64,000 nt of DNA from Octopus sinensis (taxonomy: Eukaryota). The stretch covers positions 71,424,001 through 71,488,000 of the forward strand of contig NC_043007.1 in assembly GCF_006345805.1 (NCBI RefSeq), written 5' to 3'. Position numbers and translations under genes: made by a program. The stretch's first letter is position 1; each line of letters opens with the position of its first letter. Shown piece after piece: positions 3,521 to 49,385 of this stretch. Under the pieces are notes generated by a model. That model was not told the origin of the DNA, made no database searches, and saw only the letters and a list, made by a program, of their open reading frames with translations.

Positions 3521-5442
3521 TTAATGCCCATAATCTTCATTACAAATCATCATTTGAACTATATAACTCATATATGACTCTCCAACATAATCTGGATCAC
3601 AGCCATAAGTAACACGTATACTAACATCCTGTAAATTTTCAGTAGATTCTGGAGATAATTTGACAAAGAACTTATGTCCTTCAGGCTTCCCCAAATTCAA
3701 TTCTGATGTGCCTTCAGCTAATAATGTAACTAGATCTGAACCATCTGAACCTTCTTCCTCTGTTATCATATTGCTCTTTGATACCTTAATATGAACTTTG
3801 CCACACATACTAGTGGCAGTAATTGTAATATTCCCAGCCCAGCTTGGATAAACAAAATCAAAGACTGGGTTTGTTTTAACTGACACTGTGATACCTGAGA
3901 CTGTTTTGTTAAATGGCAATCCTCGAATATGTTTCTCTACATCACATGGTTTAATTCCCACAAGTTCATAGGCTTTAATAAAGGGGGTTAGATCTTTCCC
4001 AAGATCATAGGCAACCTTCAAAGTATCACAAGCCCCTGAAGTGAAATCTGTATGAGGATGCCAATATATTTCATTGGCAATAAGGAAAACTCGATAAGCT
4101 TCCTTGATATCCATTTTTAATTCGTGTACAATGTAGTAAAAAATAAAATTATAAATCCCACTTCCATGATGAGGATCCGTGTTTTCAGTGAAGTTATCTA
4201 CATGACTTATAGATATATTGTCCAGGGATGGGTCTGCCATAAATCTCAATGCTTCCTCATCTTTCATGATGTTGAAGCCAATTAACCAGTCATTCCCACT
4301 TGCATAAGCTTCAGTGACCTCTCCAGTCATATCAGAAAAAGCCTCATTCATAGATCCAGACTGATTAAAGTAAAGCAATCCAGAGTGTTGTTCTGTGAAG
4401 CCATGGGCAAGTTCATGCCCGATAATATCAGCATCTGTTAAAGGATAAAAGTATTTATAGCCATCACCAAATGTGCAATATGTCCCATCCCAAAATGCGT
4501 TTTCAAAATCTTCTCCAAAGTGAACACGCAATATAGCTTGTTCGTTTAGTATTGAAGTATTATACCATTCCTGAAACATTTGAGATACTACACTGCCGTA
4601 ATAGAAAGCATCAAGTGCTGGAGATGACGCTGCATTGACACTATCATTAAAACCAACGTCACAAAGATAATACATAGGATCTGTATTATTAGAGTCTGCC
4701 TCAAAACTGTTTTGCATGTCTATAACCTTTACATAATTGTTTTCAAGGAAACACATGTCACCAATTTGAGTTACAAAAGCTTTGTGATTTTTCTCACTAA
4801 ATTTGTATATTCCTGATTTTTCATTACCGCCGGAACCAGTCAGTACTCTGGAAATTGTATCTAAATTGTTATATTTCAACAGTATTTCTCCAGTGTTACC
4901 ATCAATGACAAATGTAGGCCGTTTAATAACTATTTCATTTTCTATTCGATAATTAATATTGTATACTAATCGAGGTTTGTCATTTTCATCCATGAAAATC
5001 ATAATTTCATATTCTGGTTCGATACTATTTGCGTAAATCTCATCTCCCTCTGCTTTAAAAGCAATATCAAAGACATCTGATTTGGAAAGCTTTGGTTTTA
5101 CATTTGTAATATCATCTTCAATTCCTTGAATAAATGTTCCTGTTGCATCACCAGTCAAATGTCCATCTTTATCTTCTGTAACAGTTAATGAAGCATCAAA
5201 AACAGGAACACCTAAGAACTTCTCTTGTAAGCGTAAAACTTCTGTGCCTTCAACTGTTTTGATACGGTTTGACTCTTCAACTTCTTCATACTCCTTCAAA
5301 CCAAGAAGATCTCTGACTGTTACTTCAGCTTTATCTAAATGACGCCGCTGAAACGGAGCTGAGGGATGATAAATCATCCTCCTTGCTCTTTCATGGGCAT
5401 CAACGCGATAAGCTGCGTCAGATGTCTTTATCAGTAACAAAC
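3521..5442 (-). CDS. M4 (thermolysin/pseudolysin-like) zinc metalloprotease, copy 1, exon 2 (prodomain, catalytic domain, C-terminal extension)
   Basis: 639-aa open frame with HELAH (HExxH), GSMNEAFSD (third Zn ligand), NAFWDG, FGDG..FYPL, DPHHGSG and a PepSY-like FVIDGNTGEIL. It starts at a splice acceptor (minus strand tttttag|GT, AG at 5444-5443), not at a real ATG. Confidence 0.95.
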
Positions 5443-6657
5443 CTAAAAAAATGAAAGCATTAAAATCATTAATAACAGCAACATCAGGATTTTTTTAAAA
5501 GAAGACTAATTTTTTAACAATACATACAAACATAGTGACTGAACAACAGAAATAGGTCTGTATCTATTTAAAAAAGAATTAAATTAGCAATTCAAATTAA
5601 TAGAAATATGAGCTTATAATTTCAAATATATTGTCCAATAAAAAAAATTACATCAGTCAAACCTATTTTAGTGCGAATAATTTCATCCAAAGAGAAATTC
5701 AGTTTGTTCATGCAGTTAATTTAATATTTGATGAAATAGGGAGGTGATTTGTTACAAGGAGTGATTAGTTTTAAGTGAATGGAAGCGAGTGTCCTTTTAG
5801 TAAAACAACAATCAGTATCTGGAAACTACAAGTTAACTAAGGTCTGCACATCGGTTATGTAATATTTCAACAGAACATAAAAGTGAACAATTCCAAACAC
5901 ATTACAAATATTTTCTATAAAGATTCTATTGTAACTCATTTACATGTGTACACCACTGCATGAATTATAAATGGCATTTGATGCATAAATTGAGTTAAGT
6001 ATTACATTCTGTTCCCCAGAAATTCACTTCCCGAGCCATTGATCTCAACAAAGGTATGTAAGATTTATGTCAGTAAATCCATTATTCCTAGCAATGACAT
6101 CTTTCTCTTAGATTTCTAAAGTCATTCTTCCCTGTATCCACAGGTAAGTTAAATTACTGTGACACCTTTTTCTGCGACGAATTTGTAAGTTCAGCTACCA
6201 GCCCAGGCCCACTAATCGTCAGAGTATCAAAAATCAGACGACAGAATGATAAACAATTGTATTGTGAACGTCATTACTGTACAACTGTTTCTGCAGTAAG
6301 ATGATGTAGACTCATAGTTGAGTTCCTGCGAAACAAACAACTTATAGCTTCATCAGAGCCTGAAATATGAAGTGAAATTTATTTGGGAAGAAACATCTAC
6401 ATTTATGCATATACACCCAAAAGCATTATCAGTGAGAAGACAAACACATGTGTGAAGGGAATGAAATTCAAGGCCCCACTCCCTTGAAATAACATTAATG
6501 TTAAGGCTTTATAAGGAAAGGTACACTTAGATGCAAAGAAACTGTAATTAGATCTATCAGTGAAAATATATGTATACATTATCACATGAAAAGTATACCC
6601 ACACACCCAGATCTATATACATATACATACAAATATATGGATACAAATATTCATACA

Positions 6658-7852
6658 TTGGGTTGGTAAAAAAGTTCGTCGCGTTCTTCAATAGGTGATA
6701 TGTTTTATCACGTGACAGAAAATGACGAGTATATTTTCTAGAAAAGTGGATCTCAACGCATTTTGCTGTTTTAAATTTGTGCGGATTATTTACTTCTACT
6801 GTTCTTACGATAAAATTGAAAAAGAAAGAGCATGAAATTCATATTCCTCATTTAACGCTCTTTCGTTTCCGGGGAGGCAAAAACGCTGGACAAACAGCAA
6901 AGAAGATATGCGCTGTTTACGGAGATGGTGTTATATCTGAAACTACTCTCTGTAAGTCGTTCGCTAGGTTTAGAACTAAGAATTTTGACCTAGATGATTG
7001 TGAGCATTCTGGCAGGCCTGCAGTCGTTGATAATGAACAAATTGAGACTTTTATGAAAATACAATAACCTACGTTACACAGTACGAGACATCGCAGAGAT
7101 TATCCACGTATCTCATGCGAGCGTTATAAAATATTTAAAACACTTGGTTATATGAATTGCTACGATGTTTGGGTGCTTCAAAGCTTAACAGAAAAATATT
7201 TAATCGAGCGCATTTCCATCTACGGTTCTCTAATCTGAGGAAACAAAATTGATACATTTTGGAAAAGAGTGGTCACGTGTGATGAGAAATGGATTATTTA
7301 CAACAACATAAAACGAAAGAAGTCCTGGTGAAAACGAGATGAACCACCTTCAATTTCTCCAAAACTGGTCTGTATTTGAAGAAGGTGATGCTCTGTATCT
7401 GGTGGGATTGGAAGGGTACTGTGTATTATAAGCTACTTCCACAAAATCAGACGTTAAATTCAGACTATTATTGTTTCCAATTAGACTGTTTAAAGGTGGC
7501 AATTGATGAAAAACGTCCAGAATTGGCCAACCAAAAGGGACAACGCTAGACCACACGTTTCTTTGGAGACCAGGCAGAAATTGGTGCAGTTTGGGTTGGA
7601 TGTCCTGCCCTACACATCGTACTCACCTGACCTTGCACCTTCGGATTATCATTTATAATAGCCACTTAGATCAGTCATTGACCCAGGAAAATGCTAAGCT
7701 CTAGGAGGATGGGATCATGATGCTGCCTCAAAGATGACGAAAAGTAGTGGAACAAATTGGCAAGTATGTGGTTGAATAAAGGTGTGTACAAATATCTAAG
7801 TATTGTTAATGAATGTTACATAAAAACCGGCTCAAATTTTTTCCCGACCCAG
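6658..7852 (+). mobile_element. Degenerate mariner transposon in intron 1 of copy 1
   Basis: HTH region (..ICAVYGDG..SGRP), TCDEKWI, KVMLCIWWD and YSPDLAPSDY motifs broken by stops and frameshifts; imperfect TIRs. Confidence 0.9.
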
Positions 7853-7913
7853 TACATATACGTATATATCTATCTCTTTCTCCTCTCTCCGCCCCTCTCT
7901 CTCTCTCTCTGTA

Positions 7914-7946
<33 letters not shown>

Positions 7947-7958
7947 CACACACACACA

Positions 7959-8028
<70 letters not shown>

Positions 8029-10166
8029 CAAGAGTTATGGAATGGAGTAGGAAAAATCCCAGCTTCATATGTTTCATAGCCAGTGGAATTTCAGAAATGG
8101 TAAAATCCAAGTGAGGCGTATACCGCGGGCTACTCTTCAGGCCAAGTATATCTTGATTAGATTCAAGGTTATATTGTTGCAAGGAGGTACCATTTGACAC
8201 AAAGAAGATTCAATCAGAATGTGTAGAGAGTACAGTATGAGAGAGGTATATAAATGTAGGGAGAAGGGAAGAATGAAGAAAAAATAGGAGAGAGAGTGAA
8301 ATGAAGAAGGAATTCGGTGCGGTAAGTTGACTGGTAGTAGATAGTTTAGAGCTATTTGATGTCTACTTCTAGCGTGTTGATGTTTATCAGAACCATTTAC
8401 TATAATTGTATCTGTATAATTATATATCAGTATTAATTGTCCCTATATGGTTTTTATTATACACTGGCCACTTGATAAAATTTGAATTTATATTTTTATA
8501 CACTGGCCACTTGATAAAATTTGAATTTATATTTTTTTCGGGTATATTATACTGAAGACGGCATACGGATTTTATATCTCTTAGCTATGTGTGTGTATAT
8601 GTTTGCGTGTCTGTGTTTGTCCCCCAGCATCCAAGGCTCCTTCATTGGAACTTCAACATAAACAGAGTATTTTTGTATGTATGTATGTATGTATGTATGT
8701 ATGTATGTTTGTATGTACGCGTACGTGCAGATTTGTATTTTTTGCTTTACGTATGCCTTCTCATGCATATATTTACATATCTAGATATGGTCTTTTTTCA
8801 ATCATAAACTTCTAAAAAATTTTACAGATTTTTACAGTTCCAGTGATGATGTATGTATGTATGTATGTATGTATGTATGTATGTATGCATATATGTATAT
8901 AAGTTTGTATGCATGTATATATATTATTATAAAAAATATACCTCCAATTCTGCATCACTCCAGTTCACAAAACATTTAGAAATTATGACATTTTGAAACC
9001 ATTTAAGTAAATAGAAATATATCTATTAAGAATTTCAAGCATATTTTGAGTTTATCTTTTCTTTATATTTCTTTTCACATGAAAAAAAACCTTAGTTCTA
9101 TGTTCACATTTACCATCCAAAGAAGAAAAACGTCAGCAAAGTCTGACTCATGTGGGAAGACAAAAACACAGATATCCTATAAGAACCAAAAGAGATCTCT
9201 AAAATTTTGATCTTAACTAAAACAAATTGACGATATATGGAACCATACCAAAAAAATCAACAAGTGAATTTGCAGATTTCACCGAGCTTTTCACCGAGCT
9301 TTTCACCGAGCTAATCAAACTTTAAAGCAGTTGTGCGAAATTATAGAGACAGTAATACAACGCAGTCTAGAACAAAACTCAGAACACAAGCGAGAAAGCA
9401 ACAATATTTATCAGCAACAAGTGTATTCAGTCAAATACAGCTGAAATCATATTTGATTCCAAATATTCAAAATTAGCAAGGTGTCGTTTGGAACATGTTT
9501 AAAATAATGGCAAAGCTAAAATATATGAAAAGTGGATTTATTCAACGCCAATTTTGTAAAATATGATCTTGTCACAAACAAGTTTTGTGGTCTGTTTTTT
9601 GTAAGGTACTTCAATGAAAGAAAAAAGAGGGCGCTACACATTCAAATGATGTTCATTGGCAGCAAAGTTCATGCTTGACTTGCCATTATTGAACTTCTAA
9701 GTTGTAGAGTGATATCTCTGTATCGTACTAAAGCCTGCAATGAATTTCAGCCCCTAACACATCTTCAGACCAGAAAAAATAGGTCACAGATCTCTATTCT
9801 TCCTTGGTGAACACTTTTAGTTGAGCAGCCATGTTTACTCTGTAACACAAGAAAGAAAACTGGAGCAATCAAAGTAAGTTTGGATACATAAACACAAGAG
9901 GGCCAACTTTTGGCACACGTCTGGAAGGCAGTGCGACCAAAATAAAGCGAACGAGCGTGTGTTTGAGTGTATGTGACGGTGATAGCAACTTTAGCCTTCA
10001 TTTTTTCCCATTGTCTATCATATAAGTATTGAAATAATATCCATAAGTAAAACCTAAGTTCTATAAAATGTTTCATGTAGAAAACAAGTAATTTGTCATA
10101 ATCAGAAAATATAAAGATAAAATACATGTAAATTCAATAATAAAAAATTCTTGAAAATATACTTAC

Positions 10167-10215
10167 TGCCAAATAGGAGATGCCAGGAATAAAATAAAAC
10201 CATCAAATGACTCAT
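10167..10215 (-). CDS. M4 protease copy 1, exon 1 (signal peptide MSHLMVLFYSWHLLFG-)
   Basis: ATG at 10215; 49 nt followed by donor GTAAGT (10166-10161). Phase 1 matches the exon 2 acceptor (A|GT = Ser), giving hydrophobic MSHLMVLFYSWHLLFGSLLLIKTSDA and a 656-aa precursor. Paralogous exons occur at 19.8 and 49.3 kb. Confidence 0.85.
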
Positions 10216-10290
10216 GATTGTGTAATATTCACAAGTCCTCTGCTCTTTTCAAAAACCAGCTCAAGATGTATCTCAGTCATTGCTGACTCT

Positions 10291-10300
10291 TATTTATATA
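10291..10300 (-). promoter_or_regulatory. TATA box of M4 copy 1
   Basis: Minus strand TATATAAATA about 76 nt upstream of the ATG; present at the equivalent position in copy 2. Confidence 0.65.
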
Positions 10301-30098: not shown

Positions 30099-30708
30099 GC
30101 AATTACAATTAGTACAAATACTAATTTTCTACCCTGATACTTTTCTGTTTAATTGTTTTACCGCTCTTCTGGTTCGATATTCCCAAATTATTTGTAACCT
30201 TATATTTCCACCTCACATGTGACACTGATTTGTACAAAAATCGTTCGCCGTACGCAGACATGCCAATGAACATATGAATGCATGTATATTTCAGAGTCTC
30301 TAAGTTTCCCGTTATTCCTTTTGTATTATACTTTTATTGTACCTTTATATATTTTTATATTCCGTTTGTTTTCTCCGTATATTTCCTTTTTTTTTTTTAC
30401 CTTTTCCTTATAAGCTCTGTAACCCCCCGCTTTTAATCTCTACACAGATGCGTGTTGATGCATATACGCTTCATGTATGCATGTATGTGCGAATGTTTGT
30501 GCGTGTGTGCGTGTGTGCGCGTGTGTATGTACATACCTATGGGTGTGTACGTGTACTTTTGCGTATGCATTTACGTGCGAATGAGTGTTTACATATTGTG
30601 GGCGTACACGCAGTTGGTGTGTGTGTATCTGTGCATGCATTTGCGTGAGTCTGTGTATGCAGGAGGGTATATCAGTTCTATGGACGCCTTATATTTCTAC
30701 AGAGTGAA

Positions 30709-31507: not shown

Positions 31508-32004
31508 TTCTTAGATAATAGCTTATGACCACAGTTTTTCACATTAACGGTAAAAGTTTTCTCATTTCTTTCTTCTTTATTCCATTCTCTCCCTTTTTCT
31601 TCTTGTTCTTCAACTTTAATTCACACCCCTTCTTGTATATTTTGGGTCTCGCGATCTGCTTATCGCCCATTGGTTCTTTTGACATACTTCTCAACATTTT
31701 TGGCGTTTAATTTTTCTCTTTTATTTTCTTTTGTACTACTGGCTTCTCAAGTCAGTACTGTGGTGATGTGGACTTGGAAATTCCGGGCGACAATGTACTC
31801 TCCATTTGAGTGAGGTAATCTCGGCGTGATGTTTAGCAATGTTGAGCGAAATTCATTGCTTAACTATTATAGCAAGAGATTCAAATAGCTTAGAAGCACA
31901 TTTAGAAAGCATGTATGTAATTAAGTATGTATGTCTTTATGTATGTATGTATGTTGTATGTATGTATGTATGTATGTATGTATGTATGTATGTATGTATG
32001 TTTA

Positions 32005-34099: not shown

Positions 34100-36012
34100 T
34101 TAATCCTTAATACACATTTCCCGGTGCAAAAAATCTTCAATAAATGTCTCGGAAACAAAATTAGGATCACACCAATAAGTAACACGTAAACTAACATTTT
34201 CCAAATTTTCTCTAGATTCCGGAGACAACATGAAGAAAAATTTATCTCCTTTAGGCTTTCCCAAATTCAGTTCTGATGTGCCTTCAGCTAACAATGTAAC
34301 AGGATCAGAACCATCTCCTTCTGTTAGCATATTGTTCATTGATACCTTAATATGAACTTTGCCATTCATGCCATACATACTAGTGGCAGTAATTGTAATA
34401 TTCCAAGCCCAGCGTGGATAAACAAAATCAAAGACTGGGTTTTTGTTAACTGACACGCTAATACCTGAGGCTGTTCTGTTCAATGTCAATCTTCGAATAT
34501 GTTTCTCTACATCACATGGTTTAATTCCCACAATTTCATAGGCTTTAATAAAGGGGGTTAGATCTTTCCCAAGATCATAGGCAACTTTCAGCATATCACA
34601 AGCCCCAGAAGTGAAATCTGTATGAGGATGCCAATATATTTCATTGGCAATAAGGAAAACTCGGTAAGCTTCCATGATATCCATTTTTAATTCGTGCACA
34701 ATGTAGTAAAACATAAAATTATAAATGCCACTTCCATGATGGGGATTCATACTTGCTTTGAAGTTATCTACATGACTTACAGATTTATTGTCTAAGGATG
34801 GGTTTGACATAAATCTGTATGATTTCTTATCTTTCGCGATATAGACGCCAATTAACCAGTCATTTTTATCTATATAAGCTTCAGCGACTTCTCCTGTTAT
34901 ATCAGAAAAAGCCTCATTTATAGATCCAGACTGGTTTAAGTAAAGCAATCCGGAGTGTTGTTCTGTGAAGCCATGAGCAAATTCATGTGCAACAACATCA
35001 GCGACTGTTGTAGGATAAAAGCGTGTATGGCCATCGCCAAATGTGCAATATTTCCCATCCCAGTATGAACCTTCATAATTTTTCGCATAATGAACACGCA
35101 ATATAGCTTGTTTGTTTAGTATTGAAGTATTATACCATTCCTGAAACATCTGAGATACCATACTACCATGATAAAAAGCATCAAGTGCTGGAGATATCGC
35201 TGCATTGACACTATCATTAAAACCAACGTCACAAACATAATCAATAGGGTCTGTATTAAGAGAGACTTTCTCAAAACTGTTTTGCATATCTATAACCTTC
35301 ACGTAATTATTTTCCAGGAAACACATTTCACCAATCTGAGTTAAAAAAGCTTTGTGATTTTTGTCACTAAATTTGTATATTCCTGATTTTTCATTACCAC
35401 CGGAACCAGTCAGAACTGTGGAAATTGTATTTAAATTGTTATATTTCAATAGTATTTCTCCAGTGTTACCATCAATGACAAACGTAGGCCGTTTGATAAC
35501 TTTTTCATTTTCTATTCGATAATTAATATAGTATGCTAATCGAGGTTTGTCATTTTCATCCATGAAAATCATAATTTCATACTCTGGTTCGATACTATTT
35601 GCGTAAATCTCATCTCCCTCTGCTTTAAAAGCAATATCAAAGACATCTGATTTGGAAAGCTTTGGTTTTACATTTGTAATATCATCTTCAATTCCTTGAA
35701 TAAGTGTACCTGTTGCATCACCAGTCAGATGTCCATCTTTATCTTCTGTAACAGTTAATGAAGCATCAAAAATAGGAACACCTAAGAACTTCTCTTGTAA
35801 GCGTAAAACTTCTGTGCCTTCAACTGTTTTGATACGGTTTGACTCTTCAACTTCTTCATACTCCTTCAAACCAAGAAGATCTCTGACTGTCACTTCAGCT
35901 TTATCTAAATGACGCCGCTGAAACGGAGCTGAAGGATGATAAACCATCCTCCTTGCTCTTTCATGGGCATCAACACGATAAGCAGCTTCAGATGTCTTTA
36001 TCAGTAACAAAC
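34100..36012 (-). CDS. M4 zinc metalloprotease copy 2, exon 2
   Basis: 636-aa frame with HEFAH, GSINEAFSD and NPHHGSG; acceptor tttttag|GT at 36014-36013; colinear with copy 1. Confidence 0.95.
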
Positions 36013-36999
36013 CTAAAAAATGAAAACATTACGATTATTAATAACAGAACCATTAGGAGTTTTTCTTTACGATGGAGACTAATTTTTTTGACAATACATT
36101 CATACATGGTGAATAAACAGCAGGGTTAGGCCTGTATCTATTTGGAAAAGCATTGAACTAGTTTTCAATTCAAATTAATACAAATATAAGCTTATAATTT
36201 AAAATATATTGCTCACTAAAAGAAATACATGAGTCTGACGCGTTTCAGCATGAACAAATTCATCCAAATAGAAATTCAATGAGTTTCTATAGTTAATTTA
36301 ATGTTTGGTGGAATAGGGAGGTGATTTGTTAGATGGAATGACTAATTTTAAGTGAATGGATGTGTATATCCTTTTAGTAAAACAACAACCTCTTTCTGAA
36401 AACTACAAGTTAACTAAGGTCTGTACATTTTTGGTGTAGGATAACTTTGCTGATGATTTGAATGCATTCTGGTTATATTCGACGTTGTTTTTTAAGTTGC
36501 ATTCCAGTATTTTTTACTTCATATGTCCCTTCAAGCGATTCATCATTGACTTACAATGATTATAACAAAAAGCTATCAAATGTATTATTAAAAGTGAAAA
36601 ACCTGAAAATTATAACCTTGATTAGTGTATGACTTATAAGTCATTTATGGGCATATACTTGATGCTAGAATCTTTGAGATGCAATTATATAATTTCGTGT
36701 AGAGTAGTACATTAGGTTACTAAAGCCATTGTTCCCTGATGAGTGTAAGACTTATTCGGCAGTTATGGGAATATAAATATGATGTAAGAATCTTTAAAAA
36801 TGCAAATTTATAGTTTCATGTTTAAGAATTATAAATATAGAGTAGTATTGCATTTTGTTTATCTGAATTCCAACAGAATGACATTTATGCTTTATTTCAA
36901 TATTCATATAAATTCTGCTTCATACCAAACACTCTATTGTATAACATAATTATTTTTCTTGGCTAAATAATCTGCAATAGAAAAGAACAATTAGCTGTT

Positions 37000-38280
37000 G
37001 ATCAACTGTTAATGTAAAGGTAGGAGATTGTAATAGAAACACCACTGATAACGCTATTTAAAACAGATCTAAGGTGATTGGATTTGACATTAATATAATG
37101 GAAGTATTCATTATTTTTATGGTAAGGGTAGTATGAGTCAGGGTTTACGCCTAGAGTAACATCTAAAAAGTTAGTTAATGCAGTGCTATTTTTGATAGAA
37201 ACACAAAGTTTATATATGTTAAAGAATTTATGGCGGGCTTTCTGGGTTTGCTCTAAACTGGAATTCGAATATATTTGGTAGCTACGAAAAGAACTTCGTA
37301 CTTATAGCAATCATTCCTAGCTAAGGAATGCATGTTAATTCATTATAAAAGTAAGATGTACAATGTTGGTAACTTGAACAAAATACAAATATCCCATTGG
37401 AATGTCGAAGTAGTCCTTAATAGAATTTCTAGATCTTCTTATGTTGATAAAGTATATAAGGTAATTTCATGCCATTACTATAACATCTATATCTGAGTGA
37501 GAGGAAAGGTACCGATTTACTCAGAAAAATGGGAAACTGGTTTGTAATAATTGGTAATGTCAAACTGGAGAAACAAAGTATTTGTTTTGTTTTGGGAAGT
37601 GGGGATAAACCACATCCGTTCTGTTCCAAAGATTAAATTTATTTGGTCCCTTACTATTGGAAAAAGTCTAACTAAAATATTGTTAATGATAAGTTCTAGT
37701 TCGGATTTGTTGGGGCAGGCCAACCTGATTAAGGGTTTATTGAGGAAGTTCAGCTTATGAGATTTCAAACTAAGGTTTGTGTGATGGAGGAGGGTTAAGG
37801 GTATAACGATCAGTCCTATCATCTTACTTTTAGGTCTCCAATAAAGTTTAGGTATTGGTCATTGATCTTCTGAAGTGCACTCTTATTTTCCATGATGATG
37901 AAATTTTATATATATCCATCGAGCGCAAATAAGGTTTTGGTTTTATCAGTAATTACATGTATGTACAGCGATTTTGTAATTCTTAAAATTGTCCTTAATA
38001 GTTTATTTTGCAAATAGCTAATGTATTTAGAAAACGTGATGCCTATGATCATATGTAGTAAGACACTCTCAGATTTATCAAGCAAGCTACGATATTATGC
38101 ATTGGGTTCTTGTATATTTATTTTTAGATTAAAAGATTACTTCTTAATAGGTTTTGATGTTTAGCAGAAAGCTCGACCATTATACTCTTCTTTCCATATC
38201 ATTTGTTTTTTGAAGCAGTATTACAATATGAATGTTCCAAGGTTGAATAAGGATATCCTTCATCAAAGAACCTAAGAATT
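37000..38280 (-). mobile_element. Penelope-like RT relic
   Basis: HHTNLSLKS..IRLACPNKSEL..QFDITNYY..GLLRHSNG..FLDVTL fragments, heavily frameshifted. Confidence 0.65.
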
Positions 38281-38608
38281 GGGTATTTATAGTACGTGGC
38301 ACCACATGTAACTAGAGATAAGAAGATATGCAGCTCTAGAATATCAACTAATTGTCTCTTGAGAGGCTTACCGTTGGCGATTTTTTTTCCTCTGTCTTCT
38401 CTTCTCTGGATCTTTCCTACTCCTATGTTTCCGACGAAGAGCTCCGCTCGAAACGTTAAACCCTCCTTCTATCCTTCTTTCCTGAGCGTCCAATAATACT
38501 ATATTTGTTCCACGTCCTCGCGTTGTTGTGTTTTTTGTGCTTTCTTGTTTGGATTAATTATATATATATATTACTTTAATCTGTAATGATAATAATAGGA
38601 ATAGTATC

Positions 38609-39070
38609 GTGACCAATGCTAGCAATAATAATTACACCTATCATAACAATAAAAACTCCGTATTATCCAAAAATTCCGTATTATCCAAAAATTCCAAAAT
38701 TAGAAACACAATTTACCAATGCAAAATTTCTTCGGGTACCGATGTCTTCTTTTACATAGGGGCAACTTCATCTAAATTAGCCCAAAGGATCCCCAACCAT
38801 TATTCAACTTTCCGAGATAAGAGAAAACAACACAGCACGGGATTAAGCAAACTAATTTGGCGTCTGAAAGACAGCAATTCAACCTTCAAGCTGGAATGGT
38901 CCATTTTGTCGGTATCCGTTCCGTTTGATAAGGGCAGAAAAATTTGTGTCGTCTGTAATTCTGATTTTTTTCATATATCATTCGCCAAAGTACCTTTAAT
39001 AAATTCAATCGTCGAGAGGTCCTACAGGTGCTTGCACTGGAGAAAACACACCTTTCACTCATATCAATAA
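38609..39070 (+). mobile_element. Penelope-like GIY-YIG endonuclease fragment
   Basis: IYQCK...FYIGATS...HYSTF...LSKLIW..CVVCNSD; followed downstream by a hammerhead motif. Confidence 0.8.
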
Positions 39071-39653
39071 TGACTAATATAGATAACCCCCTTGAATTTT
39101 AATTAATATATTTCCATTTATATATTTCACCCCTTTAGTTTAAAAAAAAATGTTATGCTTTCAAAGACATACTACCCAGTCCATTGAGGTTTGTTTTGCC
39201 TTTGTCCCAATACCTCACCCTCCTCTTTCTCTTTTTTTTCTTTCTCTTTCCCTCTGTCTATAGTAATCAAGCACACAGACATATATCTGCTACAACACCA
39301 CTATCTGTTTTTTTTTACATCTACCCATCCACATACACATTCACGCACACACATACACACACATAGGTATTAATACAGTTATATTCATTCACTCACACAG
39401 ACACTCATTCACAAAAGAATTTAACAAAACCCACCATATATACGACCTGTTCCAAATCACCTTACTTTTCTTAGGCCTCTCTCCCCCTACTTCGTTTGAA
39501 CTCTTGAACCTTTAGAACCTTCTAGAATTTTCTACATTCAACCAGTTTGACGTCACTCCTTATAAAGGAATATTAAAGAGACACTCATTATCGCTATGCG
39601 TTCCGTGAGAGCAGTCATCTAAAAGTTTTTGTGAATCTTGATGTTGACATAAA

Positions 39654-39752
39654 TTCCTTGTTTTTCCTGATGAGAAAGCGGCATAATGTACTCCTTATTC
39701 CTTCACAATTAGGAATATGCAGCCTTCGAAACATATGTCGATAATAAAGGAA
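39654..39752 (+). ncRNA. Type I hammerhead ribozyme motif
   Basis: CUGAUGA (39667-39673), stem II GAAAGCGGCAUA/UAUGCAGCCUUC, GAAAC-AUAU-GUC (39728-39739), imperfect stem I. Confidence 0.7.
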
Positions 39753-39931
39753 ATTTGTTAATTTGTCGTTCAACTCTATTCTTTCATTTATTCATAAATT
39801 TTATTAAAATACACACACATTTATACACGAAAACACGTTGTCTCTGCGCTAGGCACGTAACTTCAACCGTGTTATTTCTGATGTGAATTTGCTACCCAGG
39901 TATCGATTAAAAGATATTTCATTTTTCTACT

Positions 39932-39997
<66 letters not shown>

Positions 39998-40087
39998 GTA
40001 TGTATGTATGTATGTATGTATGTATGTATGTATGTATGTATTATGTATGTATGTATGTATGTATGTATGTATGTATGTATGTATATA

Positions 40088-40381
40088 AATTCAGGAAATA
40101 CAAGAAAGAAATTCAACTCAGGCAGACTACGATTGGTGGTGTATACATATACGGATTTAATAAAAAGAATTGTCTCAAACATATATTAATACATTCAGAA
40201 TATAGAGTTATAGAAATATAAAAATAAATATGAATAAGCATTCTAATATTTTTTATATTTCTATAACTCTATATTTTGAATGTATTACTATATGTTTTAG
40301 ACAATTCTTTTTATTAAATCCGTATATCTATAGACCAATCGTAGTCTGTCTGAGTTGAACTTCCTTGTATTTCCTGAAATT
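40088..40381. repeat. ~290-bp near-perfect hairpin
   Basis: TTCAGGAAATACAAG..AGACTACGATTGGT..TATAGAGTTATAGAAATATAAAAA pairs with its reverse complement around a short loop at ~40230. Confidence 0.9.
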
Positions 40382-41659
40382 ATCTAGCATCTCTGGTTTG
40401 TCTCGAGCACTTCCATACTTTCTATGATTTTCTAAAGAAAATTTATATATATATACTTTGTTCGATAAATATGAAAAACGTATCAATAACCATTTCTCGT
40501 CTTTTAGACTCAAACGCAAAGCCAATTGTTCGTCCTTATCAAGCAAGATTTGGGAACTGAAGGAAAGCGGGATCGAATTTAGCCTTAAATTGGATAATAC
40601 GGAGAGCTCAGCCTTATAGAGATAGTCGATACGGGTGTTAGCAGTGCTCTATGGTCACTTAGGAGATTTTTAAGTATAGGGACAAGAACAACCTGATTAA
40701 TAGATTAGACCAATGGGTATCATGCCTACATAGCGTCAACCGTACATTTAAGTATTTTCGAAATTAGCGATTATAGGTACCATACTTGAACTTTGATGGT
40801 GGAAATTAATTTTGGTGTCGTATCTGTAGTAAACTTACTCTCTAATATTATATATAATAAAATCATGGTATATTAAGTTATATGGGGAATTAAATTCTAT
40901 TGCATATCTTATAAGCTATATGATATGGTGTGTAATGAGCTATATGTAATTACTATCCCATGAAAACTCCCGCCTACTTAATTTGCCTTCATCATGTTTT
41001 TGGTGATTAAACTATTTGTTCCTTTCTATGATGTTCTACCCTACTGATCATATTATATATATTTCTATTGGCTTTTATGTAAGTAAGTCTCCTAATTATA
41101 TACCTCCTAGAAACTATAAAATCATATATGTAATAAGACCTGTAACATTGCAACTTATAAAATCTCTTCGGTCGGAATACCTCCACCTGCCCTCACTACT
41201 CCCTTACCTACAAGCTCCTCTCTTAGGGTTACCTTTGTCTCTTCCCTACCTCAAAGTTTAATACCCTGTCTCTTTAAATGTAAGTTATATATATTTCTTA
41301 TTTTCTATAAATTCTTATTATTTTGTTTTCTTTCTTTGATATCCTTACCTATTAAATCCCTTCGAGTTGTTACTGTTCTTTAATAGAGATTTTTCAGCTA
41401 CTAGATCTATGCGAAATGGTTAAACTACAGGGTGTTCCAGAAGTCTTGGGCACATTTCAAGTCCTCATATCTACTAGACTATGATTGGTAGTAAGATGAA
41501 ACTGGTACCATTTTAAAGCTATGATTTTTTCATATTTTTCAGATCCAGCTGATGCCTTGCTAACCTCTTGGTAAATAGACACGTTGAGGACTCAGTTTGC
41601 TTGAGTGTTTCTACGTCATTTACTTTGTGTTTTCTTGAGTGGACGGCACAAAACCACAA

Positions 41660-42100
41660 TGACAGGTAAGATCTTCATTTAGAAGACGCATCGTTTTGCC
41701 AGCGTGCCTTCATACTTGCACAAAGTTGGTCCTGATGTTGAAGTTGACTTTGTTCAAATCTTTGAACTGAGGTGAAGCAGGACTGGCGCCAGGTCCTGCG
41801 TTCTGATGCTTTGCTTTCTAATGGAGAAAAGGGAATGTTGCATTGCTTCAAATTGTCTTTTAGTTTTCCTTTGAAGCATAAGAGTAGCCTTCTAAATGAT
41901 CTTCCTGTTGGGAATTGGTCAAAGAGTAGTTGCTTCGAAATTCTGATATCACTCATACATGAGAGAAGACCTGACCATCTAAGCTGAGTGAGCTTCACGA
42001 CTCTCCATTCATCTCCTAGATTAAGCAGCCAGCTTTTGCACTGTTGATAAATCTGGACCATCGCTCTTTAATGTAGGTACCACGGCAGCATGAATGATCT
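41660..42100 (-). mobile_element. RTE-like LINE 3' fragment
   Basis: QLRWSG..MSDIRISKQLLF..KLKDNLK..ERRTWR. Confidence 0.75.
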
Positions 42101-42236
42101 TGGGGACTAGACCCGTTTTCTGCAGGTACTTGACAACATCACCATGCCAAATTTTGTCCAATCTTTAAGTGACATCAGCGCATATGTAAATATATGATAT
42201 ATATGTATATCTAGTTTTTTTTATGGATTATGTGAC

Positions 42237-42304
<68 letters not shown>

Positions 42305-42451
42305 TATATATGTATATATGTTTGTATGTATGTATGTATGTATGTATGTATATATGTATGCATGTATTTATGTATGTATGCATGTATGTGTATGTGGATT
42401 TATCTGTATATATGTATCTATATATGAGTATATTTTTATACGGATATACAT

Positions 42452-44050
42452 AGGTTCCCTGCTTGTGTCCTGAAGGTGTATCGACACCAACTTGCATCTC
42501 CCCTTTCTAATCTGTGGAGAAACTCACTGGATGCTGGCTATATTCCTAAAAACTTTCTGTCCCAGTCTGTTGTCCCAGTTTTCAAAAAGGGAAACAAGTC
42601 CCTTGCAGTGAACTACCGTCCGATCTCACTCACCTCTCATATCATCAAGGTATTTGAGAGGGTGGTGAGATCTCGAATAACCCAATTTCTGGAAAGCAAC
42701 AGACGGCTGATCTCTAACCAACATGGGTTCCTTAATGGAAGGGACTGCCTAACGCAGCTCCTGCATCACTTTGATGACATTTTGAGAGCTTTAGGAGAGG
42801 GATCCAACACCGATGTCATCTACCTTGATTTCAGCAAGGCCTTCGACAGGGTTGATCACAAGATCCTATTGAAAAAAACTATCCAGCATTGGTGTCTCTG
42901 GAAAGTTACTGAAATGGATCAAGAGTTTCCTGACAGACAGATCTCAACATGTTGTAGTTGAAGGGTTAAAATCAAGCCCAGCCAAAGTCAGTAGTGGCGT
43001 TCCGCAAGGCACTGTGCTGGGCCCACTTCTTTTCATCATCTACATTAATGACATTGATGACATCATCAAGCACAGCAACATAAAAATCTTTGCAGATGAT
43101 TCCAAGCTCCAGAAGGTCATAAATGAGGCGAGTGACCGGACATGCCTTCAGTCAGATCTACTGGCTGTTATCCAATGGGCAGAAAAAAACAATATGCTGC
43201 TGAACGAGGATAAATTCGAGTTAATCTACTTTGGAAAAGAGGATGCCCTGAAACTCCCATACTCCCTTCCTTCAGGTGAAACTCTCGTGGCATCCAACAA
43301 CATCAGAGACTTGGGAGTAATTGTGGACAACAACATAAGCTGGGCCACTCATATAAACACCAAAGTTGACATGGCCCGCAGAATGTGTTCCTGGATTCTC
43401 AGAACTTCCAGTCGAGAGATATCCACACCATTATCCTTCTCTTCTCCACTTTTGCCCGACCCCACCTTGAATACTGTTGTCCACTGTGGTCTCCCCACAC
43501 AAAACAAAGTATCATAAAAGTTGAAGCACTTCAAAGGGCAATCACAAAAAAGATAGATGGCATGACAGGCCTCGACTATTGGGGTCGACTAGAAAAGCTA
43601 AAACTTTATTCTCTCCAACGTCGCCGTGAGCGTTACATCATCTGCATGATGTGGAAAATATTCCATCAGCATTGCCCAAATGATGTTGGCATCACCTTTA
43701 AGGTACATCCAAGGCTTGGGCCCCGTGCCATCAGCCCAAAACAAAAATCGCACTCTCATCTCATAACAACAATACGGCACAATTATTTCACCTCAATTGG
43801 CCCCGCTCTCTTTAACATTACACCAAAACACATTAAAACAGAAACAGACCCTATAGGATTCAAGAAGTCTTTGGACAGATTCCTTCAAGAAATCCCGGAT
43901 AAACCCCCTACACCCGGATATGTCTCTGTAAACATTAACTTTCTACTTGAGTGGGCCATAGTGCCCAAATTCTGACTTGAAAGACTTCACCAGGTGGTGC
44001 TATTAGGTTAGACATGGCCTGGGCCAATAATGGCCGAAACCTATCAAAGT
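42452..44050 (+). mobile_element. 5'-truncated CR1-clade LINE (reverse transcriptase)
   Basis: NYRPISLTS, YLDFSKAFD, SGVPQG, FADD, RPHLEY and LYSLQRRR, split by two frameshifts. Confidence 0.92.
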
Positions 44051-44251
44051 ATATATATATATGTATGTAAGCAGATGTTTATGTGTGTATATATATATAT
44101 GTATATATAAGTATATATATTTGCATTTATGTAAATATATGCGCAGGTGCATTGTGTCTATATATGTGTATGTGTATATGTATGTATATATGTATGTATG
44201 TGTATGTATATATGTATGTATATGTACGTATGTATGTATATATATATATAC

Positions 44252-44283
<32 letters not shown>

Positions 44284-44309
44284 ATATATATATACATATA
44301 TATATATAT

Positions 44310-44354
<45 letters not shown>

Positions 44355-44373
44355 GTTTAATATATATATATAG

Positions 44374-44411
<38 letters not shown>

Positions 44412-44429
44412 TTTAATATATATATATAG

Positions 44430-44463
<34 letters not shown>

Positions 44464-45550
44464 GAAATTTATAGAAAAGCAAAAAACAAAGACAGGTGTA
44501 TGAACGACAAGCAAATGTATTAGTTTGCCGCTCGGGAAAATTAAAAAGTTTTTTACGTTTCGAGCCCACGCTCTTCAACAGAAAGGAATAAGAGAAAATA
44601 AACAGAGAGAGAATGAAAAAAAAACTACACATGTATGTTATATATGTAATTATATATTTTATATATGTAACTTGTACATATATTTTATATATGTAATATA
44701 TATATATTTTTTATATATGTAATTATATATTTTATATATGTAATCATATATTTTATATATGTAATATATATATATATATTATATATGTAATCATATATTT
44801 TATATATGTAATTTGTACACGTGTTTATTACATAATGGACAAATAAAATAAAAAATGTATCAATAAATCTCCCTAAATGTATAATGTGACAGCATTACTT
44901 AACGTAATTGCGTTAGGGGCCAAATTATTTGTTATTATACTGAACGAGTTATAAATTTTTTATTCAAACTGAATTTTTATTGCTTGAAGCAAAATATGTC
45001 TTTGTTTTTATACTGAATCATTTGCAAATTTCTTTTATTGTGACTATAGACTTGTAATTTTAAAATAGTATGTTAATGTGGATATCTGAAAATTTTTTAG
45101 TGGATTAATTTATATTTCATGTTAAGTACCAATGAAGATATTTGTCTTGGGTGTAAAATATATTGCTATATTCGTAGTTAAATTTAAATTATATTAAATG
45201 ATTATACATCTATAAATATACAAATTGAATTTATTAATTAATGATGATAACAACAACAACAACAACAATAATAATAAATAAATAATTTTATATAATGCCA
45301 TATGGTGATCTAAAACTTTTCTATTGCAAGTACGACTTCCTGTCTATTTTATAACTATTGCTTTACTCTAATTTCGTTCCTTTCAAAAAACTTAGTAAAA
45401 TTATATATATTTTTTTTTATTTATAGCTTATTTTCTCTTTCTCTTAGAAATGATATAGTTTATAATTATCGTAGCTCTATATTTTTGTTTAGTTTATTTA
45501 CGGAAATTTTTCTTCTGATTAACTAAGTAAACTGGTATCTTTACTTGTTA

Positions 45551-46825
45551 TCAGGTCATCCCATAAGTTCTGTCCGAATTTTGAATAAAGAAAACAAGTA
45601 ATCAAATGTTATATTTAATTAAAATTTAATCATCAATGTACTTTCTCTGATTATCTATGACTTCCTTCCATCTATTTACAAGCTTTTTAATCCCATCAAT
45701 GGTTTCAAAGCGAAGAACTCTGAATTGTTAGTTTCGACCTCCTCCAGGCTTGCGAAAGATATGTCCCCCAAATGATTCTGTAAACTACGAAGCAAATGGT
45801 AGTCTGAAGGAGTAAGGTCGGGAGAATAAGGTGGATGAGGAATTTTTTGAAAACCAAAATCTCCGAGCTTCTGTGATGTAATCTTTGCAGTGTAGGGTCG
45901 CGCATTGTCCTGATGAAACATCACTCCTTTTCGATTCACTAAAGCATGTCATTTTTTCTTCAAAGCTTGGTTCAAACGCTCTAATTGCTGACAATAGACT
46001 TGAGCATTGATTGTTGCATTAGGTAGTAGCAATTCAATGTGAATTATTCCTTTGCAATCCCATCTGATAGAGAGAAGAACCTTTTTCCCATGAAGTTCCC
46101 TTCTTGATTGTAGTTGAGCTTTTTCCCTTTTACCAAGCCACTGTTTTCAACGTTTAACATTTCGATAGAAGATCTATTTTTCGTCACTAGTGACAAGTCT
46201 ATCCAAAATGGGTGAAATGAGTTCACGAGAATGGAGAGAAGAGCAGATATCAACTCGGGATTTGCGGTTGCTTTCGGACAATTCATGAGGCACTCATTTT
46301 CCAAGTTTAGGAACCTTTCCAAGTTGTTGAAGATGACGATGAACAGTGTATGGTTTGAACTAAGCTTTATTGCCAATTCTTTAACTGATAATGCAGGATT
46401 TTCTCCAAGTAATGCCTCAAGGAGCTTATCATCAAACTCAAGTGGACGTGCTGTTCGATCTTCAACTTCAAGGCTGAAATCTCCACTTCTGAATTTTGCA
46501 AACCCTCTTCTGCAAGTTCTTTCATTTAAGCATTATTTCCCATAAACTGAGTGTATGTTTCGAGTCGCTTCGGCTGCAGAGTTTCCTTTTTTTTTGTACT
46601 CATAAAGCATTATGTGCTTCAAATGCTCTTTGGATACGTCCATGTTAGAAAGGATTTTAAACAAAGAAATTTTAATTCTATTATTTTGTAAAATAATATT
46701 TAATTAGTTTAAATATACACAAATACATTAAAACAATTTTATTCCATTAGACATTCTAAAATACTATTAAATTTCATTCAATTTTAAAACAGGTAAAATC
46801 GGACAGAACTTATGGGATGACCTGA
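45551..46825 (-). mobile_element. Full-length degenerate mariner transposon
   Basis: TIR TCAGGTCATCCCATAAGTTCTGTCCGA at both ends, TA TSDs, HQDNARP and HPPYSPDL motifs. Confidence 0.95.
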
Positions 46826-47302
46826 TAGTTATTTTGAATAATGTTTATATCAGTAAGAAAAAAGTGAGTGTAGTTATATACTATCATTATATATAATTAT
46901 ATATCTTTTTGAATAATTATCCATATTATTGTAGTACCCATGAATATTTAGTAGATATACTAACATTATATTCTTTCGAATGTGTATACGTATATAAATT
47001 TATAGAATAAAAATATTGGATTAACATAATCTTTCTCCTTCTGTAAAACTAAGTGAAACTCTGATACTATATTTATTTATATATCATTATCTTTATCATG
47101 TATAAAATGGGTATAGTTATATAATAAACGTAAATTTATCCATTTGTTTAACATCGGCGTGCTTTGTATTTGAATAGAGAATTTAGTGACAGAATTAAAG
47201 ATATCCTTATTTATCTTTTTTCATCTAATATATAATAATTTTAAATAAAATATACTTTCTACTCCATAATTTTTTTTATATTTAATATATTATATATTAT
47301 AA

Positions 47303-47515
47303 AGCGGTGAGATGGCAGAAACGTTAGCACGTTGGGCGAAATGCTTAGGGGTATTTCGTCTGTCTTTACGTTCTAAGTTCAAATTCCGCCAAGGTCGACT
47401 TTGCTTTTCATCCTTTCGGGTTCGATAAATTAAGTAGCAGTTGCTTACTGGGGTCGATCTAATCAACTGGCTCCTTCCCCCAAAATTTTGGGCCTTGTGC
47501 CTAAAGTAGAAAAGA
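47303..47515 (+). mobile_element. tRNA-derived SINE
   Basis: Same core as the other copies in the window. Confidence 0.85.
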
Positions 47516-47639
47516 ATATATTACATATATTATAATAGATATTATATTATAAAATGGTCAGTAGCCAGTGATCATTTTCGATTAAAATACTTTTAGATAA
47601 ATGTTGTTGGAGATTCATAAGAACATTTTATGACTGTTA

Positions 47640-47965
47640 TAAATCTTTATTTAATCTTTTTATCCATTTGAATTTTGCTTTTCTTTTTATTGTACTTATT
47701 ATGTATTTGAATTATTAACGCTCGTGCTTCTAAACATAGGTATTATTGAATCAGTATTTCTGCCGTTTGGCAGTCCTTACATGGAATTTCGTCTTTTTTT
47801 TTTGTAAATCTTTATTTAATTTTTTTATCCATTTGAATTTTGTTTTCTTTTTATAGTACTTATTACGTATTTGAATTATTAACGCTCGTGCTTCTAAACA
47901 TAGGTATTATTGAATCAGTATTTCTGCAGATTGGCAGTCTTTATAAGGAATTTCGTTTTTTTTTT
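47640..47965. repeat. Direct tandem duplication, ~165-bp unit x2
   Basis: TAAATCTTTATTTAAT...GGAATTTCGT appears twice, immediately 5' of a hammerhead-like motif. Confidence 0.85.
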
Positions 47966-47975
47966 CTTTAACCAT

Positions 47976-48055
47976 AGCCCTGACGAGGCTTTTATACATA
48001 GAGAGGAATTTATATAACTTCATTACTGTATATAAGTCGAAAGAAATTGTTGGCT
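47976..48055 (+). ncRNA. Hammerhead ribozyme-like motif (stem III degenerate)
   Basis: agcc-CUGACGA-GGCUU.UAUACA/UGUAUA.AAGUC-GAAA-gaaauu-GUU-ggct. Confidence 0.5.
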
Positions 48056-48290
48056 TTATATGTGGTTTTTGAAGATTTGTTATGTTACATTATATTATAT
48101 TATATTATATTATATTATATTATAATGTAAATAAATTTTAGTTTATCAATTGTATTTATCAATTTCATTTAATATTTGTATATTATAATTATACCCTTTT
48201 ATCTGTGGTATTCAACTATTATACCAGTGAATTGGAGGTTTTACATCCCTTTGAAGGAATTGTTTTTTCCTTCGTTTGATTTATATATAT

Positions 48291-48370
<80 letters not shown>

Positions 48371-49261
48371 GCACACTCACACAAACACACACATACATAC
48401 AAACACGCACACACGTAGGCTCATTACTACACATTTCCTGCTGGTTTTCTGATCAGATTCATATAGTTTCTGTCAATTGCATAATTGCAGAGATTTCAAC
48501 TCAGAATAAGAACAAAATATTACATCAATTGGCGGTGAAGCTCATGGTTCCTGTTGTCTCCTTAACACTCATTCGCCTAGCATGGAAGTGGGTACAACAT
48601 ATGCATCTCAGATTTCCAAGGAACTCAAACAAATAAGAGTGGATAATCGTTTGCACAGGTGAAAAGTCAGGTGATTGATATTTACACCACTATTCTTATA
48701 GTATAACAACGAGACATAATCCTTAACAACCAGTGGCAAGTACCCATTAACCTTTTCCTTTTACAGCAAGCCTATTGAATCAGTTGAATGATAATGACGT
48801 AGCCCACCAGGAATGCAGAGGAACGAACCGAACCGGCAAAGCAGATGAAAGGAACAAGTTTTTAGCAAGAGAGAGAGAGAGGGGGGAGAGAGAAAAGTAG
48901 TGTCGACACAGTCATCTGGGGAGCAATTGTATAGCTATATAATTGGGTTTATAAAACAGGAAAAACATTTGTGATTCAACATAACCAATGGATAAGTTAC
49001 AATAGTTAAGACTCGTTCATGTGCTGATGGGTCTTAACTAAGGCAGCAACATGTTGATAGATCTAGTCACAAAGGAGAAATAGTTGAGGATGATTACAAG
49101 TTCGGTTAGATAGAGAATAGCAGAGATGTTACAATAATCCATAAGTCAAATCTTCTACAAAATATTTTATGTGGAAAATGAGTCGTTTATCATCATAAGA
49201 AAATGCAAAATTAAAATACACGTAAATTTATACAATGAAAAATTCTTGAAAATATACTTAC

Positions 49262-49307
49262 TTCCAAATAGGAGATACCAGCAATAAAGCAAAACCGACA
49301 AATGCAT
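49262..49307 (-). CDS. M4 protease copy 2, exon 1 (signal peptide MHLSVLLYCWYLLFG-)
   Basis: ATG at 49307, 46 nt, donor GTAAGT at 49261-49256, phase 1. It is the only exon-1 homolog seen between exon 2 of copy 2 and copy 3; implies a 13.2-kb intron and a 652-aa precursor. Confidence 0.8.
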
Positions 49308-49385
49308 CTTGATTGCAGAATATTCCCAAAATTTATGCTCTGTCCAAAAACCAGCTCAAGGTTTGACACATTCGTTCCTGAATCC

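What the first reader, a model, noticed from the sequence alone, without database searches (positions are those of the whole stretch)
5443..10300. Eukaryotic gene structure missed by the ORF track: TATA box, signal-peptide mini-exon and a single phase-1 intron
The long ORFs begin at splice acceptors, not ATGs. A 49-nt exon 4.7 kb upstream (46 nt and 13.2 kb for copy 2) supplies ATG, hydrophobic core and GTAAGT donor in the right phase. The rest of the protein is intronless. This argues against bacterial contamination and fits an intronless bacterial gene that gained one intron or recruited a host signal exon (inference).
Basis: partly seen in the sequence, partly recalled or inferred. Interest (0 to 1): 0.8.

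Follow-up and report, generated by a model that had tools for sequence, protein, structure and literature searches.

The report
Bacterial protease gene domesticated by molluscs
An octopus gene family splices a tiny first exon onto one long intron-free exon to encode a predicted secreted zinc protease of a type otherwise known from bacteria, likely captured from marine bacteria and given its one intron before the mollusc classes split.

Summary
Copy 1 has a 49-nt first exon (10215-10167), a 4,724-nt phase-1 GT-AG intron and one long exon. Joined, they give 656 aa identical to NCBI's 'elastase [Octopus sinensis]', so the gene model is already annotated. The joint is seen in contigs of 2 of 4 laid runs (RNA by guess). 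Copy 2 matches an O. vulgaris model; its joint was not read-tested. The protein is an M4 (vibriolysin/LasB-type) zinc protease zymogen. All 10 paralog loci in this genome that keep the start of exon 2, down to about 30% identity, share the same phase-1 intron position, and 7 have a 49-nt first exon. Named relatives occur in chiton, gastropods, bivalves and cephalopods and sit in one clade inside the bacterial vibriolysin branch. So this is not contamination and not octopus-specific: likely an ancient bacteria-to-animal transfer with one ancestral intron. Bacterial relatives already carry a signal peptide with the same cleavage motif, which favours intron gain over host-exon recruitment. Ten paper searches found no account of animal M4 genes.

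The parts
10293..10300 (-). TATA-like box of copy 1 (TATATAAA), 85 nt before the ATG; use as promoter untested
   Evidence: ATAAATA core invariant in 6 of 6 aligned C11 first-exon regions
10167..10215 (-). Copy 1 coding exon 1, 49 nt: ATG, 16 codons of the predicted signal peptide plus one base
   Evidence: joint in contigs of X3 and X7
5443..10166 (-). Copy 1 phase-1 GT-AG intron, 4,724 nt
3521..5442 (-). Copy 1 exon 2: rest of signal peptide, FTP and PepSY propeptide, M4 catalytic domain (HELAH 359-363, E383, H441), diverged PPC-like C-terminal domain, stop
49262..49307 (-). Copy 2 coding exon 1, 46 nt; its ATG lies one codon downstream of the position used by copy 1; TATA-like box 86 nt upstream
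   Evidence: N-terminus matches P0004; no read test
36013..49261 (-). Copy 2 predicted phase-1 intron, 13,249 nt, holding reverse-transcriptase fragments and other repeats
34100..36012 (-). Copy 2 exon 2, open to the stop
61681..63539 (-). Copy 3 exon 2: same acceptor, but an in-frame TAG early in the propeptide and a shortened C-terminus; likely pseudogene. Its 52-nt exon 1 lies beyond the window (G000:C11, ends 71493957)

Best explanation
This is a spliced two-exon octopus gene, in tandem copies, for a predicted secreted M4 (vibriolysin/LasB-type) zinc protease, likely descended from a bacterial gene that entered an animal genome before the mollusc classes split and likely gained its single phase-1 intron once, inside the signal-peptide DNA it brought along. 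Shown: exon structure, joint, domains, catalytic motifs, same intron position in all paralogs. Inferred mechanism: RNA polymerase II starts about 25-30 nt below the TATA box; splicing joins the two halves of a 26-residue signal peptide (cleavage TSDA|AY by the -3/-1 rule); the protein enters the ER; the FTP/PepSY propeptide folds and inhibits the enzyme and is cut off near residue 212/213, as in LasB (position from the alignment; mechanism recalled); a furin-type RARR site (35-38) would allow trimming by host convertases; the mature enzyme would act outside cells as a broad endopeptidase, most likely on food, mucus or matrix (no tissue data).
For: Joint in 2 of 4 runs; identity to P0001. 15 genome matches collapse to 11 loci. 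10 of 10 loci that keep the exon-2 start have an acceptor AG 29 nt before the A-x-R-V-D-A-type motif, phase 1 (for the C3 copy 26 nt before a motif typed one residue earlier). First exons found for 10 of 10: 49 nt in 7, and 46, 52, 28 nt in the others, all phase 1; introns 4.7-13.2 kb. O. bimaculoides models P0132 and P0261 match exon 2 from about residue 17 on and begin like the candidate first exons. Named relatives in chiton, limpet, abalone, apple snail, scallops, clams, pearl oyster, argonaut. Trees: 25-row clade of molluscs plus unnamed rows, SH-aLRT 97, inside the vibriolysin-type bacterial branch (51 rows); gastropods and bivalves each group (98 and 98, 100 rows). The four cephalopod-type rows as one clade are rejected, p-AU 0.003, so the paralog split carrying the shared intron is likely older than cephalopods. 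Whole bacterial layout is kept: the cleavage motif is in 16 of 23 named mollusc and 16 of 44 named bacterial proteins at residues 20-32 (shuffles mean about 1, max 5 and 4); the C-terminal domain matches the bacterial one by hhalign, 96.7%. R-x-K/R-R in residues 16-80: 10 of 23 molluscs, 0 of 44 bacteria (shuffles max 7 and 3).
Against: No donor is resolved: best prokaryotic loci are about 30-37% identical and the backbone is largely open. Tree rows were hand-picked from hits to a mollusc profile, the outgroup is 4 rows of one genome, support is SH-aLRT without bootstrap, and AU groups were named after seeing trees. Many rows in the animal-type clade have no name, so its true range and any non-animal eukaryote members are unknown. 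P0031/P0268 fall among bacteria and join the clade weakly (78) or well (98). Intron positions outside octopus were not read from named genomes; the one bivalve-type contig (L074) has a candidate acceptor 35 nt, not 29 nt, before the motif and a second intron. The cleavage motif is absent in 28 of 44 bacteria and 7 of 23 molluscs. The 23 mollusc proteins include close paralogs, so counts are not independent. N-glycosylation sequon density does not differ (1.16 vs 1.10 per 100 aa). Signal peptides evolve too fast to show that exon 1 itself is bacterial.
Confidence: 0.7

Rival explanations
1. Ancient transfer, but exon 1 with its promoter was recruited from a host secreted-protein gene (exon shuffling) and spliced to a cryptic acceptor in the bacterial signal DNA.
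For: Phase-1 signal exons are typical shuffling modules (debated in PMC1626468, passages); exon 1 brings TATA, ATG and donor together, which a naked bacterial gene would need; exon 1 sequences show no alignable likeness to bacterial N-termini beyond hydrophobicity.
Against: The donor type already had a full signal; exon 2 keeps part of the hydrophobic core and the bacterial-type cleavage motif, and the motif's distance from the start is the same in both groups (residues 21-31 vs 20-32). A DNA search with exon 1 found only the 6 paralog copies, though an old source would have decayed.
Confidence: 0.2
2. An old eukaryotic gene, inherited vertically and lost in most lineages, that shed its introns from the 3' end by reverse-transcript recombination and kept only the first.
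For: A bivalve-type copy has an extra 162-nt phase-1 intron in the propeptide (L074); many unnamed relatives widen the clade; 3'-biased intron loss is known (recalled).
Against: The clade sits inside one bacterial subfamily; all named non-mollusc hits in three searches were bacterial (best 120 each); M4 is described as almost exclusively bacterial (PMC7851659, abstract passage); long-contig unnamed relatives are single open frames from the signal end onward.
Confidence: 0.08
3. Bacterial contamination, or a recent octopus-only insertion with chance splice signals.
For: Intronless body and bacterial best hits outside molluscs.
Against: Spliced joint; 11 loci on five contigs of 15-174 Mb; host-like GC3 0.26; relatives in four mollusc classes grouping by class.
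Confidence: 0.01

Closest known systems
M4 peptidases of the vibriolysin/pseudolysin branch (LasB pro-elastase 8cr3, MCP-02 3nqx; Shewanella, Vibrio, Pseudoalteromonas M4)
   Same: Signal, FTP, PepSY, M4, M4_C and a C-terminal PPC-like domain; HEXXH, third-ligand E, active-site H; E 2e-87 to pro-elastase
   Different: Animal nuclear gene with TATA-like box and a spliceosomal intron; only 30-39% identical; frequent furin-type site in the propeptide start; C-terminal domain too diverged for Pfam
NCBI-annotated mollusc 'elastase-like / neutral protease' proteins, and GenBank AJF36072.1 'metalloprotease [Haliotis discus hannai]'
   Same: P0001 is identical to copy 1; the others are family members
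   Different: Annotation only; no paper on origin or intron found in 10 searches; a paper behind AJF36072.1 may exist outside the library
msp130 genes (PMC11878542, passages read)
   Same: Secreted proteins proposed to come from bacteria by one old transfer into marine bilaterians, dated by shared intron positions and expanded by duplication
   Different: msp130 has nine conserved junctions; here one intron only; different fold and role
Bacterial alpha-amylase in Basidiomycetes (PMC3584928, abstract and outline)
   Same: Transferred bacterial hydrolase that gained introns and duplicated
   Different: There, many introns were gained quickly; here a 1.9-kb exon stayed unbroken in all octopus copies
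Phase-1 intron excess near signal cleavage sites (PMC1626468, passages read)
   Same: Intron at codon 17, ten residues before the predicted cleavage, phase 1
   Different: None in kind; this gene is one instance of the pattern

Membership tests
Peptidase family M4 | Peptidase_M4 and Peptidase_M4_C domains above curated cut-off | tested here: met
   88.8 and 93.9 bits vs 22.4 and 24.4 for copy 1; also copies 2 and 3
Peptidase family M4 | HEXXH plus downstream NEXXSD glutamate and active-site histidine (motif roles recalled) | tested here: met
   HELAH 359, NEAFSD 382, DPH 439; H359, E360, H363, E383, H441 invariant in 23 rows
Peptidase family M4 | FTP/PepSY propeptide after a signal peptide | tested here: met
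   FTP above cut-off; PepSY E 7e-4 but below cut-off; signal judged by hydropathy and -3/-1 rule, SignalP not available
Peptidase family M4 | Zinc-dependent endopeptidase activity and self-processing | not testable with these tools
   No assay; model pLDDT 83.4, pTM 0.74; no fold search result
Vibriolysin/pseudolysin branch | Closer to LasB/vibriolysin than to thermolysin; C-terminal PPC domain | tested here: met
   297 bits to pro-elastase vs 112 to pro-thermolysin; clade support 100; C-terminal profile match 96.7%, though Pfam PPC is not hit
Spliceosomal (U2-type) phase-1 intron | GT-AG ends, frame kept, joined form in transcripts | tested here: met
   for copy-1 type; copy 2 by annotation likeness only
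Bacteria-to-animal horizontal transfer | Integrated in host chromosome, host features, expressed | tested here: met
   (expression from contigs guessed to be RNA)
Bacteria-to-animal horizontal transfer | Animal clade nested in bacteria with support and absent from other eukaryotes | tested here: inconclusive
   Nested at SH-aLRT 97 within 89 within 100, but donor open, rows hand-picked, many rows unnamed, other eukaryotes not surveyed by name
TATA-driven Pol II promoter | Start site 25-30 nt below the box | not testable with these tools
   Contigs end near 10219; box conserved among paralogs

The most novel reading that the evidence does not exclude
An undescribed animal protease family: one transfer of a whole vibriolysin-type gene from a marine bacterium into an early bilaterian or early mollusc, fixed by a single signal-peptide intron that has kept its phase and place for over 500 million years while the 1.9-kb coding body stayed intron-free, then tuned to the animal secretory pathway by furin-type sites and expanded in tandem in many marine invertebrates.
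Probability: 0.45. Interest if true: 0.62.

Novelty: new member of a known kind. Interest (0 to 1): 0.45.

Why it matters
M4 proteases are described as almost only bacterial and are virulence factors of marine Vibrio. A native, old, expanding mollusc family means that 'elastase/vibriolysin' hits in mollusc proteomes and transcriptomes need not be bacterial. It also gives a clean case for two open questions: how a transferred gene is made fit for an animal genome with minimal change, and whether signal-peptide phase-1 introns arise by insertion or by exon shuffling, since here the intron-free ancestor type survives in bacteria. The gene structure as such is ordinary and already annotated.

Tried and rejected
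No listed run is on record as RNA; this is no evidence either way. Copy 2's joint has no read result. Intron bins without cover were not used as evidence. The search meant to name the unnamed relatives returned none with an animal name among 120; cluster look-ups named 1 of 10, 0 of 10 and 5 of 10. The metagenome scan (79 loci) gave mostly gene-dense, bacterial-looking loci; two looked animal-type (L050, a transcript-like contig; L074). A first loose exon-1 scan was swamped by microsatellite hits, its output was cut, and it missed copy 1 through its hydropathy filter; exons were then fixed by DNA likeness. A 55-nt candidate exon for the C27 copy was rejected for the 49-nt one that is 97% like the C10 exon. 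N-glycosylation density showed no difference. No AATAAA/ATTAAA within 1 kb below copy 1's stop. Named molluscs as one clade without the unnamed rows was rejected (p-AU 0.014), but the interleaved rows may be molluscs, so this does not show a pre-mollusc origin. One row (L160) was dropped before the 100-row tree for lack of a motif-bearing frame. No fold search result was obtained. Paper searches listed no paper on animal M4 genes; the library lacks most subscription papers and no supplements were read, where HGT candidate tables might list this family. Annotated P0003 has another N-terminus and P0004 is called isoform X2, so other first exons are not excluded.
Full report
Observation. The minus strand carries TATATAAA at 10300-10293, an ATG at 10215, 16 codons plus one base, and GTAAGTAT. 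The long frame at 5494-3521 is entered through a T-rich acceptor ending at 5443. The intron is 4,724 nt. The joined frame gives 656 aa identical to P0001, which NCBI names 'elastase [Octopus sinensis]'. Copy 2 (49307-49262 plus 36012-34100; intron 13,249 nt) gives 652 aa with 9 differences from O. vulgaris P0004. Of 13 GTAAGT sites on this strand only these two close an open ATG exon of that size, both with a TATA 85-86 nt upstream.

Transcript evidence. Of 24 listed runs four were laid on copy 1. Contigs of X3 and X7, from two studies, join 5442 to 10167 with GT-AG ends; X1 and X2 do not show the joint; X2 has one gap-free 1,897-nt contig over exon 2. The runs are RNA by guess, no DNA control was given, and a neighbouring copy has a 97% identical first exon, so the joint proves the structure for this copy type rather than strictly for copy 1. 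Cover ends near 10219, so the start site is untested. Copy 2's joint has no read result.

Protein. Pfam gives FTP, PepSY (below cut-off), Peptidase_M4 and Peptidase_M4_C. The best solved relative is Pseudomonas pro-elastase (E 2e-87), well above thermolysin. HELAH 359-363, E383 and H441 are invariant in 23 aligned rows. The last 110 residues match the bacterial C-terminal (PPC-type) region by profile comparison, probability 96.7%, and are modelled as a confident beta domain (mean pLDDT 83.4). The signal's hydrophobic peak spans residues 13-21, across the splice joint at residue 17.

The intron is old. The genome has 15 matches that collapse to 11 loci on five large contigs. Ten keep the start of exon 2, and 10 of 10 have an acceptor AG in phase 1 at the same distance, 29 nt, from the A-x-R-V-D-A-type motif (the C3 copy reads 26 nt because its motif was typed one residue earlier). 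First exons were found for all ten: 49 nt in seven, 46, 52 and 28 nt in the rest, with GTAAGT or GTGAGT donors and introns of 4.7-13.2 kb. These include paralogs only 31-44% identical to copy 1. O. bimaculoides models of two distant paralogs switch to exon 2 near residue 17. Copy 2's shorter exon comes from an ATG one codon downstream.

The family. Named relatives come from a chiton, limpet, abalones, apple snail, scallops, ark shell, clams, Solemya, pearl oyster, argonaut and three octopuses. Every other named hit among the best 120 of three searches was bacterial, and the best prokaryotic genome loci reach about 30-37%. In a 100-row FastTree, 47 rows form a clade (96) in which gastropods (98) and bivalves (98) each group. 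In a 51-row IQ-TREE with a mixture model, 25 rows form a clade (SH-aLRT 97) inside the vibriolysin-type bacterial branch (100), donor unresolved. Holding the four cephalopod-type rows together is rejected (p-AU 0.003; group named after seeing trees). So the duplication that separates the C30 type from copy 1, both with the intron, is likely older than cephalopods and, on these trees, than the split of the mollusc classes. Rows were hand-picked from over 500 fetched proteins and many are unnamed; some unnamed clusters have 12-21 near copies on megabase contigs, as tandem animal genes do, so the family may reach beyond molluscs, which I could not show.

Gain or recruitment. Bacterial relatives carry their own signal peptide. 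The motif right after the predicted cleavage occurs in 16 of 23 named mollusc and 16 of 44 named bacterial proteins, at the same distance from the start, far above shuffles. Exon 2 holds that motif and part of the hydrophobic core. The simplest history is an intron inserted into the donor's signal DNA; recruitment of a host exon stays possible because signal peptides drift too fast to align. Phase-1 introns near signal cleavage sites are a known excess, explained either way in the literature (PMC1626468, passages). A likely animal addition is an R-x-K/R-R site early in the propeptide: 10 of 23 molluscs, 0 of 44 bacteria. Against a simple 'one intron everywhere': a bivalve-type broken copy (L074) has a second, 162-nt phase-1 intron and a candidate first acceptor at 35 nt.

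How it likely works. Inferred from M4 biology (recalled): secretion through the ER, cleavage at TSDA|AY, propeptide-assisted folding and inhibition, self-processing near residue 212/213 (by alignment to elastase), then zinc-dependent cutting of extracellular protein. Digestion or mucus/matrix turnover is my best guess; no tissue data were available.

What is known. The gene model is annotated. M4 is called 'almost exclusively from bacteria' (PMC7851659, abstract passage). Ten searches listed no paper on animal M4 genes, but an abalone 'metalloprotease' is in GenBank, most subscription papers are missing, and no supplements were read. Closest precedents: msp130 (PMC11878542, passages) and a fungal amylase (PMC3584928, abstract and outline). 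The scan has one note on this same window and none on other DNA.

Verdict. Observation confirmed; interpretation partly supported. The structure is ordinary and annotated; the interest lies in an apparently undescribed, old, mollusc-wide bacterial-type protease family dated by one conserved intron. New member of a known kind; interest 0.45.

Noticed in passing
G000:C11:71404930-71503900: The tandem array has five units on the minus strand: an intact copy before the window (P0002), copies 1 and 2, copy 3 with an early stop, and a fragment whose first exon lacks the ATG. The introns of copy 1 and the upstream copy are 95% alike over about 4.6 kb.
   Followed up: partly
window 49307-49310: Copy 2 lost the shared start codon and uses a new in-frame ATG one codon downstream.
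   Followed up: yes
G000:C11:31405586-31416694 and C10:4184119-4190953: Further paralogs in pieces: the C11 31.4-Mb copy has a 28-nt first exon (24 nt shorter core) and a frame change; the C10 copy is split over frames; its first exon is 97% like that of the C27 copy.
   Followed up: partly
L074:686-2091: Bivalve-type M4 pseudogene in a metagenome contig with a 162-nt phase-1 intron in the propeptide; P0263's N-terminus breaks at about the same place.
   Followed up: partly
P0031, P0268, P0413 (JGI/Logan, about 2.3-kb contigs): Proteins with an animal-type N-terminus (ARRVDA, dibasic sites) but bacterial-like catalytic and PPC domains; they may be the least-changed members and the best guide to the donor.
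   Followed up: partly
   Followed up: no
window 42428-43975, 38558-39070, 46044-46532, 32308-32769, 30437-31528: Reverse-transcriptase fragments, two frames without Pfam hits, a C2H2 zinc-finger frame and a tandem repeat lie in copy 2's intron or between copies.
   Followed up: no
L009:1-828: A C2H2 zinc-finger array lies within 1 kb of the C30 paralog's end.
   Followed up: no
window 10320-10311: A CCACGTAAT-like element about 20 nt above the TATA box is partly kept in all six C11 promoters.
   Followed up: no
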